Both the position numbers and the translations under genes were made by a program. A stretch of 41,685 bases of DNA from Actinomycetota bacterium. GTDB lineage: Bacteria > Actinomycetota > CADDZG01 > WHSQ01. The stretch is taken from positions 1 to 41,685 of the forward strand of contig JBOGWZ010000001.1 in NCBI GenBank assembly GCA_050694075.1. The letters run 5' to 3'. Shown one piece after another: positions 34,680-40,445 of this stretch. How positions within the stretch are numbered: the first letter of the stretch is position 1; each line of letters opens with the position of its first letter. The notes below the pieces were generated by a model. The model worked only from the letters and a program-made list of their open reading frames with translations. It was not told where the DNA came from and ran no database searches.

Positions 34680-36119
34680 GTGGAAAAGAACGCCAAACCC
34701 GTGGGGAAAATGGTCCCGGACGATCACGTGCTGGTGATCTTCGGGGCGAACGGAGACCTGTCGCGGCGGAAACTGCTCCCCGCGCTTTTCCACCTGTTTC
34801 AGGAGGGGCTGATGCCCCGGCGCTTCCGCGTGATCGGCAACTCCCGCAGCCCTCTCTCCGACCAAGACTTTCGAGAGTTCGCGCGCTCCGCCGTAGACGA
34901 GTTTTGCCGCTGCGACCCGGACGACGAGTCGTGGGCGGAGTTCTCATCCACCCTGTCCTACGTCTCCCACGAGTTCACCGCGGAGGACAACGAGCCCGTG
35001 GCCGACGCGGTGAGACGCGCCGAGAAGGAGCTCGGAGTTGATGTCCGCCGCCTCTTCTATCTGTCGGTGCCGCCGCCCGTCTTCTCGGTGATCACCCGGG
35101 CCCTGGGGGCGTGCGGGCTCGACGAGAGAGGTCGCGTCGTGTTCGAGAAGCCTTATGGGCTCGACCTCGAGTCGTTCCGCGAGCTCGACGCGGTCGTTCG
35201 TTCCGTGCTCGACGACACGCAGGTCTTCCGGATCGACCATTTCCTCGGCAAGGAGACCGTGCAGAACATCCTTGCGCTTCGCTTCGCGAACGGCATGTTC
35301 GAGCCGATCTGGAACCGCCAGCACGTGGAGCACGTCCAGATCGATGTGCCGGAAACGCTCGGTATCGGCAGGCGCTCCGGCTTCTACGAGCGCACCGGTG
35401 CGTTCAGGGACATGATCGTCACGCACCTCTTCCAGGTGTTGAGCTTCGTGGCGATGGAGCCCCCGACGTCGCTCGACCCGAAGCCGCTACAGGACGAGTC
35501 CGCCAAGGTCTTCGATTCGATGGTGGAACTGTCTCCGGACGACGTGGTCTACGGGCAGTACGACGGGTATGTGGATGAGGACGGTGTGAGTGACAGCTCG
35601 CAAACGGAGACGTTCGCCGCGGCCCGGCTGTCCATAGACAACTGGAGATGGGCAGGTGTGCCCTTCTACCTGCGGACGGGCAAGCGCATGGCCGAGGACA
35701 AGCAGATGGTGACGCTGGCGTTCCGAGAGCCGCCCCGTCAGATGTTCAGGGAGCTGGACGAGAGCGCGTTCGATCAGGACCATCTCGCGCTCGAGCTCGC
35801 GCCCGACGAGGGGATCTCGGTCTCGTTCCTGGCCAAGAATCCCGGCCCCGAGATCGTGCTCGCCCCCGCCGAGATGCGCTTTCGCTACGAGGGATCGTTC
35901 GGCTCCACGTTGATCGAGGCCTACGAGCGGCTGATACACGACGCGCTGATCGGGGACCGAACCCTGTTCACGCGTGGGGACGGCGTAGAGCGGGTGTGGG
36001 AGGTGGTGGAGCCGGTCCTTCGCCGGCCTCCGAAGCTGCATCCTTACCCGCAGGATTCATGGGGACCCGTGGCCGCAGACGAGCTGATCTCCCCACACCG
36101 GTGGCACCTAGGTGGCTGA
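34680..36119 (+). CDS. zwf: Glucose-6-phosphate 1-dehydrogenase (NADP-type Zwf)
   Basis: VIFGANGDLSRRKLLPALF (dinucleotide site) and the FRIDHFLGKETVQNILALRFANGMFEPIWN signature. 479 aa. The start is uncertain (GTG 34680, GTG 34701 or ATG 34710). Confidence 0.92.
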   Translation: MEKNAKPVGKMVPDDHVLVIFGANGDLSRRKLLPALFHLFQEGLMPRRFRVIGNSRSPLSDQDFREFARSAVDEFCRCDPDDESWAEFSSTLSYVSHEFTAEDNEPVADAVRRAEKELGVDVRRLFYLSVPPPVFSVITRALGACGLDERGRVVFEKPYGLDLESFRELDAVVRSVLDDTQVFRIDHFLGKETVQNILALRFANGMFEPIWNRQHVEHVQIDVPETLGIGRRSGFYERTGAFRDMIVTHLFQVLSFVAMEPPTSLDPKPLQDESAKVFDSMVELSPDDVVYGQYDGYVDEDGVSDSSQTETFAAARLSIDNWRWAGVPFYLRTGKRMAEDKQMVTLAFREPPRQMFRELDESAFDQDHLALELAPDEGISVSFLAKNPGPEIVLAPAEMRFRYEGSFGSTLIEAYERLIHDALIGDRTLFTRGDGVERVWEVVEPVLRRPPKLHPYPQDSWGPVAADELISPHRWHLGG

Positions 36120-36560
36120 CCTCCAGACGTGAGAGCGCGCCGCCCGCCGTTCGGCCAGCTCTTTTGCCTCGAGGAGGTGCTCGCGCACCAGGCGTTCGAA
36201 GACTCGCTTGACGTACAGCCTCCCGATCAGCGGACCGAAGAGGCCGGGTGGCGAGGCGAACCAACCCGCGTAGGTGACATCGGTCTCCGCCCCATCGACC
36301 TCTTGGAACGAGATCTCCTCACGGACGTCCGGCAGTGGTCCCTCGAGCCATGCGTACTGGATGCGCTCCGGAGGTTGCAGCTTGATCTTTTCGAGGGTGG
36401 GGATCGTGCGCTTTCGGTGGGAGGTCTCGAAGCGCACGATCTTCTCGAACTCCGAACGCTGCTCGACGACGCGGCCCGCGCTCGCAACGACCTCGAAACA
36501 CAGACCTCTGGGCGCGTGCATGCGAACCGTTTGGGTTCGAAGCGGTATACGTTGGCTCAT
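36108..36560 (-). CDS. SRPBCC-superfamily (polyketide cyclase/dehydrase-like) protein
   Basis: 150 aa. The composition and pattern (..FEVVASAGRVVEQRSEFEKI...DVTYAGWF...LIGRLYVKRVFERLVREHLLEAKELAE) resemble Polyketide_cyc2/SRPBCC small proteins. Convergent with zwf, with a 12-nt 3' overlap. Weak SD. Confidence 0.6.
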   Translation of the reverse strand: MSQRIPLRTQTVRMHAPRGLCFEVVASAGRVVEQRSEFEKIVRFETSHRKRTIPTLEKIKLQPPERIQYAWLEGPLPDVREEISFQEVDGAETDVTYAGWFASPPGLFGPLIGRLYVKRVFERLVREHLLEAKELAERRAARSHVWRSAT

Positions 36561-36625
36561 CCTGAAAGAGGATGCCCTATCAGGACGTTTGATTGCATGG
36601 TGATCGGAGACAGAGAGGGGGGACC

Positions 36626-37216
36626 GTGAAGATCGACTTCCACTTCGACCCGCTGTGACCGTGGGCGTGGCAGAGCTCCCGGTGGATCCGGGAGGTTGCG
36701 AAGGTTAGAGACGTCGAGGTCTCGTGGCGCCTCTTCAGTCTGCAAATCATCCACGAGGGCAAAGAGGACCCGCTGGCGGACCTGCACGCGCTCGGCACAC
36801 CGGCGCTGAGAACGCTGGCGGCCGTGGGCCGGAAACACGGCAACGAAGGCGTCGGGCGGCTGTACGAAGCGATCGGGCGGCGCGCGCACGATGGAGGAGA
36901 GGAACTGTCGCCCGAGCTCGTCGAGAAGGCTCTGAAGGACTCGGGGCTCGATGCCTCGTTCGTATGGAGGGCCCTCGATGACGACTCCACGATCGCCGAT
37001 GTGAGGGCCGAGCACGATGCGGTCGTCTCCGAGGTCGGCGCGTTCGGCGTGCCGACGATCGTTCTGGAGGACGGCGGAGGGATCTTCGGCCCGGTCATCT
37101 CGTCGGCTCCCCAGGGCGAGGAGGCCGGAGAGCTGTGGGACCACGTACGGTGGCTGACCGAGCACGGCTACTTCTTCGAGCTCAAGCGCGAGCGGGACCG
37201 AGGTCCCGGTGAGTGA
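36626..37216 (+). CDS. DsbA-like (Rv2466c-type) thiol oxidoreductase with in-frame TGA at 36656-36658 in place of the catalytic Cys; candidate selenoprotein (alternative: nonsense pseudogene)
   Basis: Own translation: GTG 36626 (after AGAGGGGGG) gives MKIDFHFDPL-TGA-PWAWQSSRWIREVAKVRDVEVSWRLFSLQIIHEG...GVPTIVLEDGGGIFGPVISSAPQGEEAGELWDHVRWLTEHGYFFELKRER... It is in frame with track ORF 36824-37216. There are no other stops, and no ATG/GTG/TTG between the TGA and 36824. The family motif is FDP(L)CPWC. Confidence 0.65.
36676..36694 (+). promoter_or_regulatory. SECIS-like stem-loop downstream of the in-frame TGA
   Basis: ctcccgg-tggat-ccgggag: a 7-bp stem with a 5-nt G-containing loop. The stem starts 17 nt after the TGA, and the loop starts 24 nt after it. 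Confidence 0.45.
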
Positions 37217-37330: not shown

Positions 37331-38683
37331 GTGATCGTGATCGGGATGGGGGTCGGCGGCGAGGAGGTCGCGGGGCGCTGTGCCGAAGGCGGCATGAACG
37401 TGCTCGCCGTCGAACGCAAGCTGGTCGGCGGCGAGTGCCCCTACTGGGGATGCATCCCGTCGAAGATGATGATCCGCGCCGGCAACACGCTTGCGGAGGC
37501 CCTGCGCGTTACGGGGCTCTCGGGGAAGTCCGAGATATCACCAGACTGGGCGCCGGTAGCCAAGCGCATCCGCGAGCAGGCCACCGATACCTGGAACGAC
37601 GCGGTCGCGGTCGAACGTCACGAGAAGAAGGGGAGCACCGTGCTGAAGGCACCGGCGCGGATCGTCGGCCGCAACGAGGTCGAGGTGGACGGCGCGCGGA
37701 TGAGCGCCCGCCGCGGTATCGTGATCGCGACCGGCAGCGAGCCGGCCGTGCCTCCCATCAACGGCATCTCGGACGTCGAGTTCTGGACGAACCGAGAGGC
37801 CGTCGAGACCGAAGAGGTCCCACGCTCTCTGATCGTTCTGGGGGCGGGTCCGATCGGACTCGAGTTCGGCCAGGTGTACCACCGCTTCGGCAGCGATGTG
37901 ACCTTCGTCGAGCTGGCCGACCACGCGCTACCGATGGAGGAGCCGGAGAACGGTGACGCGATCGCCGAGGTCCTGCGTTCGGAGGGCATGACGCTTCACA
38001 TCGGCGTATCGGCGCAGTCGGTGAAGCGCAGCGACGGGGGCACGGCGGTGGAGCTGTCCGACGGCCGCGTGATCGAGGCCGAGCGCCTGCTCGTTGCCAC
38101 CGGGCGACGCACTAACCTGAGTGAGCTGGGGATCGACGCGGCCGGGCTGGACCCCGAGGCGCGGGCGATCGAGGTCGACGAGCACATGCGGGCCGGGGAC
38201 GGGCTCTGGGCCGTGGGAGACGTCACCAGCAGGGGCGGGTTCACCCACCTCGCCGTCTACGAGGGGCGCGTGGCCGCCGCCGACATCCTGGGCCAGGAGA
38301 ACCGTCCCGCCGACTACTCCGCGGTTCCGCGCGTGACCTTTACCGATCCCGAGGTGGCAAGCGTGGGACTCACCGAGGCGCAGGCGAAGGAGCAAGGTAT
38401 CGAGGTGAGAACCGGGGTCTCGACGACATCGTCGTCGTCTCGCGGCTGGATCCACGGCCCGGGGGCCGAGCACGGCGTCACCAAGGTCGTCGCCGACGCC
38501 GACCGCGATGTTCTCGTCGGCGCGTCGACGATGGGACCGGCCGCCGGCGAGGTGCTGGGGCTGTTCGTTCTGGCGATAAAGGAGAAGATCCCGATCCCCG
38601 CCCTGCGGGATTTGATCTATCCGTATCCGACTTTCGTTCGGGGCGTCGAAGATGCCTTCCGGATCCTCGTCGAGGGCCGCTAG
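37331..38683 (+). CDS. Class-I pyridine nucleotide-disulfide oxidoreductase (LpdA/Mtr/MerA-like flavoprotein disulfide reductase)
   Basis: VIGMGVGGEEVA (FAD), the redox-active GGECPYWGCIPSK (CxxxxC), a second Rossmann motif LIVLGAGPIGLEFGQ, ..ATGR.. and ..WAVGDV.., plus a dimerisation domain. The C-terminal YPYPTF replaces the HPT/E dyad of lipoamide dehydrogenases. The start is uncertain (see findings). Confidence 0.88.
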   Translation: MIVIGMGVGGEEVAGRCAEGGMNVLAVERKLVGGECPYWGCIPSKMMIRAGNTLAEALRVTGLSGKSEISPDWAPVAKRIREQATDTWNDAVAVERHEKKGSTVLKAPARIVGRNEVEVDGARMSARRGIVIATGSEPAVPPINGISDVEFWTNREAVETEEVPRSLIVLGAGPIGLEFGQVYHRFGSDVTFVELADHALPMEEPENGDAIAEVLRSEGMTLHIGVSAQSVKRSDGGTAVELSDGRVIEAERLLVATGRRTNLSELGIDAAGLDPEARAIEVDEHMRAGDGLWAVGDVTSRGGFTHLAVYEGRVAAADILGQENRPADYSAVPRVTFTDPEVASVGLTEAQAKEQGIEVRTGVSTTSSSSRGWIHGPGAEHGVTKVVADADRDVLVGASTMGPAAGEVLGLFVLAIKEKIPIPALRDLIYPYPTFVRGVEDAFRILVEGR

Positions 38684-38716: not shown

Positions 38717-39241
38717 GTGAGGGCGATGGACAATCTGCGCAGAGGTGCCCTGGTGGCGGTAGCGGCCCTGGCCGTCGTGCTCGTCGCCGTTCTGCTGGGC
38801 ACGGGCGGGGATGGCACGGTCGCAATGGGAGAGTCCGCCCCCGAGCTGACACTGACCGACTTCGAGGGCAGCCAGTTCTCGTTCGCGGATTACGAAGGTA
38901 CGCCCTTGGTCGTGAACTTCTGGGCATCGTGGTGCCCGTTCTGCGTGTCGGAGATGCCCGATTTCGAGCGGGTGCACCAGGCTCTCGGCGACGAGGTCGT
39001 CTTTCTCGGGGTCGACCAGCGCGACCGTCGCGACCGAGCCCTAGAGCTGGCGCGCCAGACGGGCGTCACGTACCGCTTGGTATGGGACCCTCGGGGAGAG
39101 GTGTTCGACGCTTTCGGCGGGCCGGGGATGCCGACCACGGCCTTCATCGACGCCGAGGGCACGGTGGTGGAGGTCATCCCCGGACAGTTGTCGGCCGGAC
39201 TCCTGCGCGACCACATCCAGCGGAATTTCGGGATCGGTTGA
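38717..39241 (+). CDS. TlpA/ResA-like membrane-anchored thioredoxin-fold protein (WCPFC)
   Basis: N-terminal TM (ALVAVAALAVVLVAVLL) and ..PLVVNFWASWCPFCVSEMP..GMPTTAFID... GTG start after GGAGG. Confidence 0.88.
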   Translation: MRAMDNLRRGALVAVAALAVVLVAVLLGTGGDGTVAMGESAPELTLTDFEGSQFSFADYEGTPLVVNFWASWCPFCVSEMPDFERVHQALGDEVVFLGVDQRDRRDRALELARQTGVTYRLVWDPRGEVFDAFGGPGMPTTAFIDAEGTVVEVIPGQLSAGLLRDHIQRNFGIG

Positions 39242-39242
39242 C

Positions 39243-40445
39243 ATGCGCGACGACATGTGGGCTCAGGCCCCGGGCGAAGGGACCCGCAGCGCGGCGTGGA
39301 AGGTAGTGCTGGCGCTGGTGCTCGTGCTCGGATTGGGGGCCGGGTTCGTGGGGGTCATCCTGGCGGGGGAGGACGAGGCCCCGCAACCGCCTGCTTCTCC
39401 CGTCGCGGAGGACGAAGAAACGGGAGCCCTGCCGGGTGGTTTCGACGAATCCCGGATCGTCACGGTGCTGTCACCGGATGCGATCCCGGCGCTCACCGAC
39501 CCCCCGTTCCAGTCCGTGTCCGATGTCGATTGGCTCACTTCGGAGGAGCCGGTGATCGCGGTCGAGCTAAATGGGGACGCGCGCGCCTATCCACTGCAGA
39601 TCATGACGTGGCACGAGATCGTCAACAATGACGTCGGAGGAACGCCGGTCACCGTCACGTTCTGCCCACTGTGCAACACCGCGTACGCGTTCCAGCGTCC
39701 CGAGGTTGACGGCAAGGTGACCACTTTCGGCACGTCCGGGAAGCTCTACCACTCGAACCTCCTGATGTACGACCGGGCCACGGACTCGCTGTGGCCGCAG
39801 GCACTGGGTGTCGCCACGACCGGAAAACTCAAGGGAACGGTGCTGGAGCGCGTTCCCGCGCAGATCGTCTCGTGGGAGGAGTTCCGGGCCACGTTCCCCG
39901 AGGGAAGGGTCGTGTCCCGGAACACCGGACACACGCGCAACTACGGAGAGAACCCCTATCCCGGCTACGATGACATCGACAGCCAGCCTTTCCTTTTCGA
40001 AGGAGAGGTCGACGGCCGTCTCGCCGCCGTGGAGCGTGTGCTGGGGATCGAGGGCAGGGGAGCGATCACCGCCTTCCCGTACTTCCGCCTGAAGGAAGCG
40101 GCCGACGGTGACCTCGTCGCGATCAACGCCGAGGTCGGCCGCACTCCCGTGATGGTCGTGTGGAAGGAAGGGACGCGGTCCGCACTCAACGCGACCTCGA
40201 TCGCCGAATCGAAGGACGTAGGCGCGGCTTTTGCCTTCTCTCGCAAGCTCGGCCAACGTGTCCTTTCGTTCGACGTGGTCGGCGGCAAGATCGTCGACCG
40301 TCGAACGGGCAGCACTTGGAACATCTTCGGTCGCGCCACTTCGGGTTCGCTGGAAGGGGAGAAGCTCGCGCCGGCCGACGCGCACGACTCTTTCTGGTTC
40401 GACTGGGCGGCGTTCCATCCCAACACCCAGGTCTGGGAGGGATGA
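39243..40445 (+). CDS. DUF3179-family protein with an N-terminal membrane anchor
   Basis: TM (VVLALVLVLGLGAGFVGVIL), ..IPALTDPPF.., ..ARAYPLQIMTWHEIVNNDVGGTPVTVTFCPLCNTAYAF.., ..GTSGKLYHSNLLMYDRATDSLWPQ.. (pattern recalled for DUF3179). It starts 1 nt after the TlpA-like stop. Confidence 0.8.
   Translation: MRDDMWAQAPGEGTRSAAWKVVLALVLVLGLGAGFVGVILAGEDEAPQPPASPVAEDEETGALPGGFDESRIVTVLSPDAIPALTDPPFQSVSDVDWLTSEEPVIAVELNGDARAYPLQIMTWHEIVNNDVGGTPVTVTFCPLCNTAYAFQRPEVDGKVTTFGTSGKLYHSNLLMYDRATDSLWPQALGVATTGKLKGTVLERVPAQIVSWEEFRATFPEGRVVSRNTGHTRNYGENPYPGYDDIDSQPFLFEGEVDGRLAAVERVLGIEGRGAITAFPYFRLKEAADGDLVAINAEVGRTPVMVVWKEGTRSALNATSIAESKDVGAAFAFSRKLGQRVLSFDVVGGKIVDRRTGSTWNIFGRATSGSLEGEKLAPADAHDSFWFDWAAFHPNTQVWEG

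What the first reader, a model, noticed from the sequence alone, without database searches (positions are those of the whole stretch)
36626..37216. In-frame TGA exactly at the catalytic-Cys position of an Rv2466c-type DsbA-like oxidoreductase: candidate selenoprotein with a U-P-W-A active site
Seen in sequence:
- A short ORF head (GTG 36626, purine-rich SD, MKIDFHFDPL) runs into TGA 36656-36658.
- The same frame then stays open for 186 more codons to 37216.
- After the TGA, the frame has no ATG, GTG or TTG until 36824. Without recoding, about 55 residues that look like a conserved thioredoxin-fold N-terminus (PWAWQSSRWIREVAKVRDVEVSWRLFSL...) could not be translated.

Established knowledge, recalled rather than searched:
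- The DsbA-like family that includes M. tuberculosis Rv2466c (a mycothiol-dependent reductase) has the N-terminal motif [11 protein letters not shown] followed by ..SRW..EVAKVRD.EV.
- The TGA here aligns with the first, nucleophilic Cys. The resolving Cys is Ala here (UPWA).
- Sec/Cys pairs at redox-active positions of thioredoxin-fold proteins are the classical signature of bacterial selenoproteins.
- To my recollection, DsbA-like families have appeared in computational selenoproteome surveys. I am not aware of a Sec form of the actinobacterial Rv2466c-type enzyme.

Inference: this is a UGA-recoded selenoenzyme rather than the 130-aa fragment in the ORF track.
Basis: partly seen in the sequence, partly recalled or inferred. 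Interest (0 to 1): 0.85.

Follow-up and report, generated by a model that had tools for sequence, protein, structure and literature searches.

The report
Selenocysteine form of an Rv2466c-like reductase
A stop codon sitting exactly where this redox enzyme's catalytic cysteine should be is almost certainly read as selenocysteine, and the same substitution recurs in many uncultured soil actinobacteria, pointing to a selenoprotein subfamily that I could not find described.

Summary
GTG 36626 opens a 10-codon head, TGA 36656-36658 interrupts it, and the frame runs 185 more codons to TGA 37214-37216. The 196-aa product is a full-length Rv2466c-like DsbA-fold protein (PF22234, 3.4e-44; PDB 4NXI, 9e-40), and the TGA aligns with the first Cys of CPWC.

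All 79 GTDB species-representative homologues have TGC or TGT at this codon. A TGA-specific scan of metagenomes and look-ups of truncated gene calls found about 30 distinct genes with TGA at the same codon, in at least five clades. Their frames are intact in all but two. Purifying selection acts on the whole gene (pN/pS 0.15-0.48) and on the 8 codons upstream of the TGA (0.13-0.18). Stem-loops follow the UGA and show compensatory changes. UGA is the commonest ordinary stop on the contig, so the codon is not reassigned. A related MAG carries a tRNA-Sec.

Caveats:
- selA/B/C/D could not be checked in this genome.
- The formal bSECIS criteria barely discriminate in GC-rich DNA.
- The nearest Cys-form relative has the identical hairpin.
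- A catalogued "DsbA-like form 2, DxxUP" selenoprotein may overlap this family.

Verdict: the selenoprotein reading is supported (about 0.8). It is a new member of a known kind and of moderate interest.

The parts
36612..36623 (+). Purine-rich Shine-Dalgarno-like run (AGAGAGGGGGGA) upstream of the GTG start
   Evidence: Read directly from the sequence. The nearest relative P0001 starts at the homologous GTG, giving MKIRFYFDPLC.
36626..36655 (+). Ten-codon N-terminal head (M)KIDFHFDPL of the selenoprotein gene
   Evidence: GC3 is 1.0. The homologous 8 codons are under purifying selection in the all-TGA clades, with pN/pS of 0.18 and 0.13.
36656..36658 (+). In-frame TGA, proposed selenocysteine codon (residue 11), at the nucleophilic Cys position of the C-P-W-C/A motif
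   Evidence: It aligns with the first Cys of CPWC in Rv2466c. The codon is TGC/TGT in 79 of 79 GTDB species representatives and TGA in about 30 other homologues.
36659..37216 (+). Remaining 185 codons of the Rv2466c-like DsbA-fold domain plus the genuine TGA terminator (37214-37216)
   Evidence: PF22234 matches 1-180/180 at 3.4e-44. PDB 4NXI, 4ZIL and 5XUR match at about 1e-39 over residues 3-194. The length after the codon equals that of the Cys forms.
36670..36699 (+). Candidate bacterial SECIS. The upper stem pairs 36676-36682 with 36688-36694 (CUCCCGG/CCGGGAG), the apical loop UGGAU is at 36683-36687, and a lower 4-bp stem pairs 36670-36673 with 36696-36699. The loop starts 24 nt after the UGA.
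   Evidence: Folds (-18.5 kcal/mol). It meets the bSECIS criteria quoted. The closing pair is G-C in 4 sequences and C-G in 4 across TGA forms. Caveat: the identical hairpin occurs in the Cys-form P0001.
34680..36119 (+). Glucose-6-phosphate dehydrogenase (Zwf), conserved upstream partner and inferred NADPH source
   Evidence: Pfam G6PD_N and G6PD_C. It lies immediately upstream of the Rv2466c-like gene in 26 related loci, 50-152 nt away in 24 of them.
37331..38683 (+). Class-I flavoprotein disulfide reductase (redox motif GGECPYWGCIPSK), the inferred recycling reductase. The gene caller starts it at 37346.
   Evidence: Pfam Pyr_redox_2 and Pyr_redox_dim. It scores below every NCBIfam cutoff. 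It recurs downstream of the homologue in L015, L016, L021, L024, L121 and the P0003 contig.

Best explanation
The gene at 36626-37216 encodes a 196-residue cytoplasmic thiol-disulfide reductase of the Rv2466c/mycoredoxin-2 type (DsbA fold). Its single catalytic residue is selenocysteine, inserted at UGA 36656-36658.

Shown here:
- The UGA occupies the nucleophilic-Cys column of the family.
- The same UGA is kept, with intact and selectively constrained reading frames on both sides, in several deep clades of homologues.
- A stem-loop with a G-containing apical loop follows 22-24 nt downstream.
- UGA is otherwise an ordinary stop in this genome.

Inferred:
- SelB carrying Sec-tRNA(Sec) recognises the stem-loop at 36670-36699 and inserts Sec.
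- The protein has no Cys and carries Ala at the resolving position (U-P-W-A), so it must work by a one-selenol ('monothiol-type') mechanism like the one documented for Rv2466c. The selenolate attacks a mixed disulfide, such as an S-thiolated protein. The resulting Se-S intermediate is resolved by a low-molecular-weight thiol.
- The oxidised thiol is re-reduced by the flavoprotein disulfide reductase encoded 115 nt downstream, using NADPH from the G6PD encoded upstream.

The conserved peptide S-R-W-[IM]-R-E itself encodes 4 of the 7 stem pairs. Lineages that have the Sec machinery may therefore be able to switch between Cys and Sec by one nucleotide.
For: Family and column:
- PF22234 matches at full length, 3.4e-44.
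- Rv2466c structures match end to end, with the TGA on the first Cys of CPWC.
- All 79 GTDB species representatives have TGC/TGT at this codon.

Recurrence:
- The P0096 clade has TGA in 7 loci from 7 samples. A syntenic Cys orthologue, P0004, is 90% identical.
- 27 of 29 hits to a TGA-specific pattern in metagenomes are real family members, falling into at least 5 subfamilies.

Selection:
- Frames stay open for 183-193 codons after the TGA, as in Cys forms.
- Whole-gene pN/pS is 0.15-0.48 within all-TGA clades at 60-95% identity.
- pN/pS for the 8 codons upstream of the TGA is 0.18 and 0.13.

RNA:
- TGA forms have a continuous 6-7 bp stem. None of 75 GTDB Cys forms reaches 6 bp.
- Group A has a 17-bp stem with a C-G to A-U swap made by two synonymous changes. 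The window group's closing pair is G-C in 4 sequences and C-G in 4.
- 95-96% of cells are paired, against 26-64% when partners are slid.
- Sec forms have stronger hairpins than Cys forms, p = 3e-4.

Code and machinery:
- TGA terminates 14 of 25 genes on the contig.
- A tRNA-Sec (RF01852, 79.9 bits) occurs in a related MAG.

Mechanism and context:
- Rv2466c uses a monothiol mechanism (PMC6178380).
- The G6PD and flavoprotein neighbours are conserved.
- The protein contains no Cys.
Against: - No selA, selB, selC or selD lies in the 41.7-kb window or in the rest of the contig held. The remainder of MAG GCA_975307135.1 could not be searched.
- The published bSECIS criteria are also met by 56% of Cys forms and 79% of shuffled sequences, so passing them carries little weight.
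- The nearest Cys-form relative, P0001, has exactly the same 7-bp hairpin. The hairpin is therefore not Sec-specific in this lineage, and a very recent TGC-to-TGA mutation cannot be excluded from the RNA evidence alone.
- The second assembly with the same TGA is 100% identical over 2.8 kb and may come from the same reads.
- The closest putative TGA relative, P0003, could not be verified at the DNA level.
- Two TGA forms elsewhere (L100, L120) look damaged.
- The roles of the flavoprotein and G6PD, and the identity of the thiol cofactor, are inferred from gene order only.
Confidence: 0.8

Rival explanations
1. Recent inactivating nonsense mutation. In this one lineage a TGC-to-TGA change killed the gene, and the downstream hairpin merely pre-existed because the peptide S-R-W-I-R-E encodes it. 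The product is nothing, or a non-catalytic 130-aa fragment restarted at GTG 36824.
For: - The nearest Cys relative, P0001, has the identical hairpin.
- The peptide forces 4 of the 7 stem pairs.
- Sec machinery is unverified for this genome.
- L100 and L120 show that decaying TGA forms exist.
Against: - Only 1 of 62 one-step nonsense paths hits this codon.
- There is no second lesion in 185 codons, and GC3 is 0.85 between the TGA and GTG 36824.
- The closest relative, P0003 (84.7% identity), has a truncated gene call that implies the same in-frame stop. This would place the TGA before about 15% amino-acid divergence.
- pN/pS between the window gene and P0001 is 0.24.
- The same TGA is stably maintained in several other clades.
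Confidence: 0.12
2. UGA is read through or reassigned without selenium. Near-cognate tRNA-Trp or tRNA-Cys decodes a leaky UGA-C context, or UGA has been reassigned across the genome as in some Eggerthellaceae.
For: - All TGA forms have the weak-termination context UGA-C, because a Pro codon follows.
- UGA-to-Trp reassignment is documented in Actinomycetota (PMC13462651).
Against: - TGA terminates 14 of 25 genes on the contig, including this gene, G6PD and DUF3179.
- The reassigned lineages have 31-40% GC, lack prfB, and have UGA aligning with Trp. Here GC is 65% and UGA aligns with Cys.
- Trp at the catalytic position would give a dead enzyme, which is inconsistent with the purifying selection seen.
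- Conserved, covarying stem-loops and a tRNA-Sec in a relative point to SelB-dependent decoding.
Confidence: 0.04
3. Sequencing or assembly error. The true codon is TGC or TGT.
For: This is a single-nucleotide difference in a MAG. The two assemblies are identical and may share reads.
Against: - Two different assembly pipelines give TGA.
- The same TGA is seen in about 30 other sequences from more than 25 independent samples, so errors would have to recur at one base.
Confidence: 0.02

Closest known systems
Rv2466c / mycoredoxin-2 of Mycobacterium tuberculosis (PDB 4NXI, 4ZIL, 5XUR; Pfam PF22234)
   Same: - Alignable end to end (E about 1e-39, residues 3-194 against 12-205), with the same N-terminal FxFDPL-C-PW motif and the following SRWI.EVAKVRD.EV helix.
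- Documented to use a monothiol mechanism with a low-molecular-weight thiol and a flavoprotein disulfide reductase, MSH/Mtr (PMC6178380). This is the mechanism a one-selenol enzyme would need.
   Different: - Rv2466c has C-P-W-C. The window protein has U-P-W-A and no other Cys, so it cannot use the dithiol route that Rv2466c uses for prodrug activation.
- Its gene context is G6PD plus an unclassified flavoprotein reductase, not Mtr.
- Its thiol cofactor is unknown.
DsbA-like selenoprotein 'form 1' (UxxC, COG2761/FrnE-like; Sargasso Sea 2005, then Deltaproteobacteria and Clostridia)
   Same: It has a DsbA-superfamily (PF01323) thioredoxin fold, with Sec at the N-terminal nucleophilic position of the CxxC-type motif and a bSECIS just downstream.
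   Different: - Its motif is UxxC, with the resolving Cys kept. Here it is UxxA.
- It belongs to a different subfamily (COG2761, not Rv2466c-like PF22234).
- It is found in marine and anaerobic Proteobacteria and Clostridia, not in Actinomycetota from soil-type metagenomes.
DsbA-like selenoprotein 'form 2' (motif DxxUP, PF01323, representative MDP6049977.1 annotated as crotonase/enoyl-CoA hydratase family; Peng et al. 2016 as listed in the 2026 review PMC13188914)
   Same: The motif D-x-x-U-P fits the window's D-P-L-U-P, and the Pfam clan is the same. JGI annotates the window's homologues as 2-hydroxychromene-2-carboxylate isomerase, the DsbA branch with D-x-x-S/C-P motifs.
   Different: - The catalogued representative carries a crotonase-family name, which suggests a different, fused architecture.
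- All forms seen here are stand-alone proteins of about 200 aa with no second domain.
- The accession could not be retrieved, so whether the two are the same is unresolved.
NCgl2478 of Corynebacterium glutamicum (DsbA-Mrx1 cluster, C-P-F-C)
   Same: An actinobacterial cytoplasmic DsbA-fold, mycothiol-dependent thiol-disulfide reductase involved in oxidative-stress resistance (PMC8280269).
   Different: It is a dithiol C-P-F-C enzyme with no Sec form reported. It was not compared by sequence here.

Membership tests
Rv2466c-like (Pfam PF22234), DsbA-fold mycoredoxin-2 family | Full-length match to the family profile above its curated cut-off | tested here: met
   151.6 bits against a cut-off of 27, covering profile positions 1-180 of 180.
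Rv2466c-like (Pfam PF22234), DsbA-fold mycoredoxin-2 family | Collinear similarity to the solved Rv2466c structures across the thioredoxin and helical domains | tested here: met
   4NXI, 4ZIL and 5XUR match at E about 1e-39, residues 3-194 against 12-205. This is a sequence comparison only. No structure was predicted.
Rv2466c-like (Pfam PF22234), DsbA-fold mycoredoxin-2 family | Nucleophilic Cys in the N-terminal F-x-F-D-P-x-C-P-W motif | tested here: met
   The motif is present, with TGA (proposed Sec) in the Cys column.
Rv2466c-like (Pfam PF22234), DsbA-fold mycoredoxin-2 family | Second (resolving) Cys of the C-P-W-C motif, as in Rv2466c itself | tested here: not met
   The residue is Ala (U-P-W-A). 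This is the norm for the clade, where most of the 79 loci are C-P-W-A and only 8 are C-P-W-C.
Rv2466c-like (Pfam PF22234), DsbA-fold mycoredoxin-2 family | Mycothiol-dependent reductase activity | not testable with these tools
   This needs biochemistry. The msh genes could not be looked for outside the window.
Bacterial selenoprotein (SelB/SECIS-dependent UGA recoding) | In-frame UGA aligned with Cys in homologues (Sec/Cys pair), with conserved flanks | tested here: met
Bacterial selenoprotein (SelB/SECIS-dependent UGA recoding) | UGA-containing orthologues in other organisms, under purifying selection on both sides of the UGA | tested here: met
   About 30 distinct TGA forms in at least 5 clades. 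pN/pS is 0.13-0.18 upstream of the UGA and 0.15-0.48 over the whole gene.
Bacterial selenoprotein (SelB/SECIS-dependent UGA recoding) | bSECIS stem-loop: apical loop of 3-9 nt with G in its first two positions, stem of 4-16 bp, 16-37 nt after the UGA, MFE of -7.5 kcal/mol or lower | tested here: inconclusive
   The window element meets every criterion: UGGAU loop, 7 bp, 24 nt, -18.5 kcal/mol. Compensatory changes exist. However, 56% of Cys forms and 79% of shuffles also pass, and the Cys-form P0001 has the same hairpin.
Bacterial selenoprotein (SelB/SECIS-dependent UGA recoding) | selA, selB, selC and selD present in the same genome | not testable with these tools
   None is in the window or contig. 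A tRNA-Sec is present in the related MAG NAD bin27.
Bacterial selenoprotein (SelB/SECIS-dependent UGA recoding) | UGA is not reassigned genome-wide | tested here: met
   TGA terminates 14 of 25 called genes on the contig.
DsbA-like selenoprotein form 1 (UxxC) | U-x-x-C redox motif | tested here: not met
   The motif is U-P-W-A and the protein has no Cys. The family motif is given.
DsbA-like selenoprotein form 2 (DxxUP, crotonase-family annotation) | D-x-x-U-P motif in a PF01323 domain | tested here: met
   D-P-L-U-P. PF01323 also matches at 2.4e-12.
DsbA-like selenoprotein form 2 (DxxUP, crotonase-family annotation) | Crotonase/enoyl-CoA hydratase domain, as implied by the representative's name, and homology to MDP6049977.1 | tested here: inconclusive
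   No second domain is present in the window protein or in any TGA form examined. The representative sequence could not be retrieved for comparison.

The most novel reading that the evidence does not exclude
The Rv2466c-like family contains a previously uncatalogued one-selenol (U-P-W-A/T) subfamily that has arisen or reverted repeatedly in uncultured, probably aerobic soil and desert Actinomycetota. The switch is easy because the conserved peptide S-R-W-[IM]-R-E already encodes most of a SECIS-like hairpin, with its loop on the Trp codon. A single TGC/TGA change can then toggle Cys and Sec in lineages that have the machinery. The enzyme sits in a self-contained G6PD, flavoprotein disulfide reductase and selenol relay.
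Probability: 0.45. Interest if true: 0.65.

Novelty: new member of a known kind. Interest (0 to 1): 0.55.

Why it matters
- Gene callers and NCBIfam miss this family. Every TGA form examined was annotated as a truncated 130-180-aa fragment, and no NCBIfam model hits the protein. Annotation of many soil Actinomycetota MAGs is therefore wrong at this locus.
- Rv2466c is the activator of antitubercular prodrugs and a mycoredoxin. A natural Sec form with Ala at the resolving position is a ready-made test of the monothiol mechanism and of what selenium adds to it.
- The 2026 review states that aerobic bacteria rarely retain selenoproteins. A selenoprotein found repeatedly in high-GC Actinomycetota from soil-type metagenomes would extend where Sec use is expected.
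- Very close, syntenic Sec/Cys pairs, and a hairpin partly dictated by the protein sequence, make this a tractable system for studying how Sec codons are gained and lost.

Tried and rejected
- Rfam and ARAGORN on the window found no tRNA-Sec and no RNA family.
- tblastn with E. coli SelD and SelA, both recalled from memory and so approximate, found no hit in the 1.4 Mb of fetched DNA.
- A GC3-based scan of the window for other TGA-interrupted genes gave only noise from off-frame and antisense high-GC3 frames, with no convincing second selenoprotein.
- The genome-contig scan found no TGA form among the 79 loci I classified out of the 80 returned. It was useful as a Cys control set but gave no named Sec-using host.
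- The long open frames upstream of the TGA in L103, L100 and L111 were tested as possible crotonase fusions. They are low-complexity GC-rich non-coding sequence.
- Neighbours of the tRNA-Sec in L022 are RTX and BNR repeat proteins, not sel genes.
- The formal bSECIS criteria were rejected as a discriminating test after controls.
- Genome-wide UGA reassignment was rejected.
- Literature searches for Rv2466c with selenocysteine, for selenoprotein with mycothiol, and for selenoprotein with HCCA isomerase returned nothing. The deep-Sep and Actinomarina papers do not mention DsbA-type proteins.
- My TGA-specific pattern allowed only Ala or Thr at position +3, so U-P-W-C forms were not searched.
- No structure prediction was run, because the sequence match to solved structures was already full length.
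Full report
**1. The observation**

- A purine-rich run (36612-36623) precedes GTG 36626.
- Ten codons (VKIDFHFDPL) lead to TGA 36656-36658.
- The same frame continues for 185 sense codons to a second TGA at 37214-37216.
- The first possible restart codon in frame is GTG 36824, 56 codons after the TGA. This is where gene callers start their 130-aa product (P0038).

The window is part of contig CDIAGT010000085.1 of the NCBI MAG GCA_975307135.1. A Logan assembly of run SRR27067773 contains the same 2.8 kb with the same TGA. It is 100% identical, so it may share reads with the MAG.

**2. What the protein is**

With Cys substituted for the TGA, the 196-aa product matches Pfam PF22234 (Rv2466c-like) over the whole model at 3.4e-44, and PF01323 (DSBA) more weakly. 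It aligns end to end with the crystal structures of M. tuberculosis Rv2466c (4NXI, 4ZIL, 5XUR; E about 1e-39). In that alignment the TGA falls on the first Cys of the C-P-W-C motif. No NCBIfam model hits it.

Among the 120 best homologues in the protein collection, the full-length ones all read F-H-F-D-P-x-C-P-W-A-W. So the Ala at the 'resolving' position is the norm for this clade, not a peculiarity of this gene. The window protein contains no Cys at all.

**3. Is the TGA a one-off?**

It is not. About 14 of the 120 best hits were 172-180-aa proteins starting just after the motif.

Fetching the DNA for four of these clusters gave seven loci from seven samples. Every one has TGA at exactly this codon (`MTETVRFHFDPI*PWAWQSSRWMR[ED]V`), never TAA or TAG. 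These loci lie in a different genomic context: lepA, hemN, LOG, the gene, then peptidase M15. A Cys orthologue, P0004, is 90% identical and occupies the same syntenic slot with TGC.

One scan of 185,579 species-representative genomes, with a query trimmed to start after the codon, returned 80 loci. The 79 that I classified all have TGC or TGT.

One scan of JGI metagenomes used the TGA-specific pattern TTYGAYCCNNNNTGACCNTGGRCNTGG and returned 29 hits. Of these, 27 are genuine family members with TGA at the Cys codon, and they fall into at least five divergent subfamilies. A neighbour-joining tree shows two deep clades made only of TGA forms (groups A and B). Smaller Sec groups are interspersed with Cys forms, and the Cys-form L010 is nested inside the clade that holds the window and the P0096 group.

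**4. Are the TGA forms functional genes?**

- Where the contig allows, the frame stays open for 183-193 codons after the TGA. This is the same length range as in Cys forms.
- Two sequences are exceptions and may be decaying: L100 looks frameshifted and L120 has a stop at +32.
- Whole-gene pN/pS within the all-TGA clades is 0.15-0.48, at amino-acid identities from 60% to 95%.
- The 8 codons upstream of the TGA would be a useless peptide if the TGA terminated. They have pN/pS of 0.18 in group A and 0.13 in group B, with synonymous divergence of 0.37-0.56.
- For the window gene itself, pN/pS against its nearest Cys relative is 0.24.
- Only 1 of 62 one-step nonsense mutations would hit this codon.
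- The window's closest relative, P0003 (84.7% identity), has a truncated gene call with room upstream for the 26 missing codons.

**5. RNA structure**

In the window, a 7-bp stem (CUCCCGG/CCGGGAG, 36676-36682 with 36688-36694) closes a UGGAU loop. The loop starts 24 nt after the UGA, and a 4-bp lower stem flanks the main stem. This meets the four bSECIS criteria quoted in the 2026 review.

All TGA forms of this subfamily have a continuous stem of 6-7 bp at this position. None of the 75 distinct GTDB Cys forms reaches 6 bp. The closing pair is G-C in four TGA forms and C-G in four others.

Group A has a 17-bp stem-loop (-30 to -40 kcal/mol) whose apical loop lies on the same Trp codon. One of its pairs changes from C-G to A-U through two synonymous third-position changes. 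In both alignments 95-96% of cells are paired, against 26-64% when the partners are slid. Only 3-5 of 500 shuffles reach the observed covariation score.

Three caveats limit this evidence.
- The peptide S-R-W-[IM]-R-E forces 4 of the 7 pairs by itself.
- Applied by script, the bSECIS criteria are met by 87% of Sec forms, but also by 56% of Cys forms and 79% of shuffled sequences. Only the comparison of strengths is informative (Mann-Whitney p = 3e-4).
- The nearest Cys relative of the window protein (P0001, TGC) has the identical hairpin. That hairpin is either a relic of a recent Sec-to-Cys reversion or a structure that was there before Sec.

**6. Genetic code and Sec machinery**

TGA terminates 14 of the 25 called genes on the contig, including this gene. 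The known UGA-to-Trp Actinomycetota have 31-40% GC, lack prfB, and have UGA aligned with Trp. Codon reassignment is therefore excluded.

The window has no tRNA and no Rfam match. The other contigs of the MAG could not be reached with these tools.

Scanning all 1.4 Mb of fetched DNA found one tRNA-Sec (ARAGORN; Rfam RF01852 at 79.9 bits against a gathering score of 47). It lies 38 nt downstream of the Cys-form homologue in the MAG 'Actinomycetota bacterium NAD bin27'. Its neighbours are not sel genes. This shows that the Sec trait exists in this uncultured group. It does not show the trait in this genome.

**7. Context and likely mechanism**

Five genes surround the candidate.
- A G6PD gene lies upstream (34680-36119).
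- A small conserved antisense gene follows (36108-36560).
- A class-I flavoprotein disulfide reductase with the motif GGECPYWGCIPSK lies downstream (37331-38683).
- Next is a membrane-anchored TlpA-like redoxin.
- Last is a DUF3179 protein.

G6PD is immediately upstream of the homologue in 26 related loci. In 24 of them the distance from the G6PD end to the Cys codon is 50-152 nt. The flavoprotein recurs downstream in several loci, including the nearest relatives.

Rv2466c is documented to reduce mixed disulfides by a monothiol mechanism fed by mycothiol and mycothione reductase (PMC6178380). By analogy, and as inference only, the window enzyme would proceed in three steps:
1. Its single selenolate attacks a mixed disulfide.
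2. A low-molecular-weight thiol resolves the Se-S intermediate.
3. The neighbouring flavoprotein and G6PD supply the reducing power.

**8. Comparison with what is known**

Thioredoxin-fold selenoproteins with Sec/Cys pairs are a well-known kind.
- 'DsbA-like' selenoproteins were described in 2005 (UxxC, COG2761). They are listed in 41 organisms by Peng et al. 2016.
- The 2026 catalogue of 119 families has 'form 1' (UxxC) and 'form 2' (DxxUP, with a crotonase-family representative).
- The window protein fails the form 1 motif.
- It fits the form 2 motif but has no second domain. The representative accession could not be retrieved, so overlap with form 2 remains possible.
- No paper in the searchable library links Rv2466c, mycothiol or HCCA isomerase with selenocysteine.

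**9. Verdict**

The main rival is a recent nonsense mutation (about 0.12). Non-Sec read-through or reassignment (about 0.04) and sequencing error (about 0.02) are minor. The decisive missing test is a search for selA/B/C/D in the rest of the MAG.

It is a new member of a known kind, possibly already catalogued under another name. It is of moderate interest because of the link to Rv2466c, the one-selenol active site, the recurrent and very recent Sec/Cys switches, and the unexpected host group.

Noticed in passing
L022 1089-1178 (+), contig JALZGD010000228.1, MAG 'Actinomycetota bacterium NAD bin27': A full-length tRNA-Sec gene (anticodon TCA; Rfam 79.9 bits) lies 38 nt downstream of the stop of the Cys-form Rv2466c-like gene (457-1050). 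The sister locus L017 has no tRNA-Sec there, and the neighbours are RTX and BNR repeat proteins. This may be coincidence or linkage.
   Followed up: partly
window 36108-36560 (-): A 150-aa ORF (137 aa by the gene caller) with no Pfam match. It is conserved (58% identity in L024, 47% in L038) and inserted between G6PD and the Rv2466c-like gene only in these three loci. In 24 other loci the two genes are almost contiguous.
   Followed up: partly
window 37331-38683 (+): A flavoprotein disulfide reductase with an unusual redox-active motif, C-P-Y-W-G-C. It scores below the curated cut-offs of every NCBIfam equivalog (MerA, LpdA, mycothione and glutathione reductases), so it belongs to an unnamed subfamily. 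It co-occurs with the Rv2466c-like gene in several relatives.
   Followed up: partly
L010/L012 (GCA_050694215.1) compared with L003-L009: A Cys-form orthologue (TGC) that is 90% identical and fully syntenic nests inside an otherwise all-TGA clade. This suggests a very recent Sec-to-Cys reversion, or several Cys-to-Sec gains.
   Followed up: partly
L121 262-888 (Logan SRR23018269): The nearest Cys-form relative of the window protein has the identical 7-bp hairpin after its TGC codon and the compact arrangement G6PD, gene, flavoprotein. The hairpin is therefore not exclusive to Sec forms.
   Followed up: yes
L100 (2369-2428, - strand) and L120 (241-300): Two TGA-form genes carry further damage: L100 looks frameshifted and L120 has a stop 32 codons after the TGA. 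They are possible decaying copies or assembly errors.
   Followed up: no
Group A loci (L092, L095, L099, L105-L110, L113, L117), 18 codons after the UGA: Synonymous divergence is lower in the stem-loop region (0.31) than in the flanking codons (0.56 upstream, 0.48 downstream). This is consistent with RNA-structure constraint on silent sites. The pattern is not seen in group B.
   Followed up: no
window 38717-40445 (+) and L001 13624-14145: A membrane-anchored TlpA/ResA-like redoxin (WCPFC), a DUF3179 protein and an ECF-type sigma factor follow the reductase genes. The same order occurs in L024. Together they may form an envelope redox module next to the cytoplasmic one.
   Followed up: no
P0018 (324 aa, Logan): A two-domain relative with about 125 extra N-terminal residues fused to the Rv2466c-like domain. 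It was not examined.
   Followed up: no
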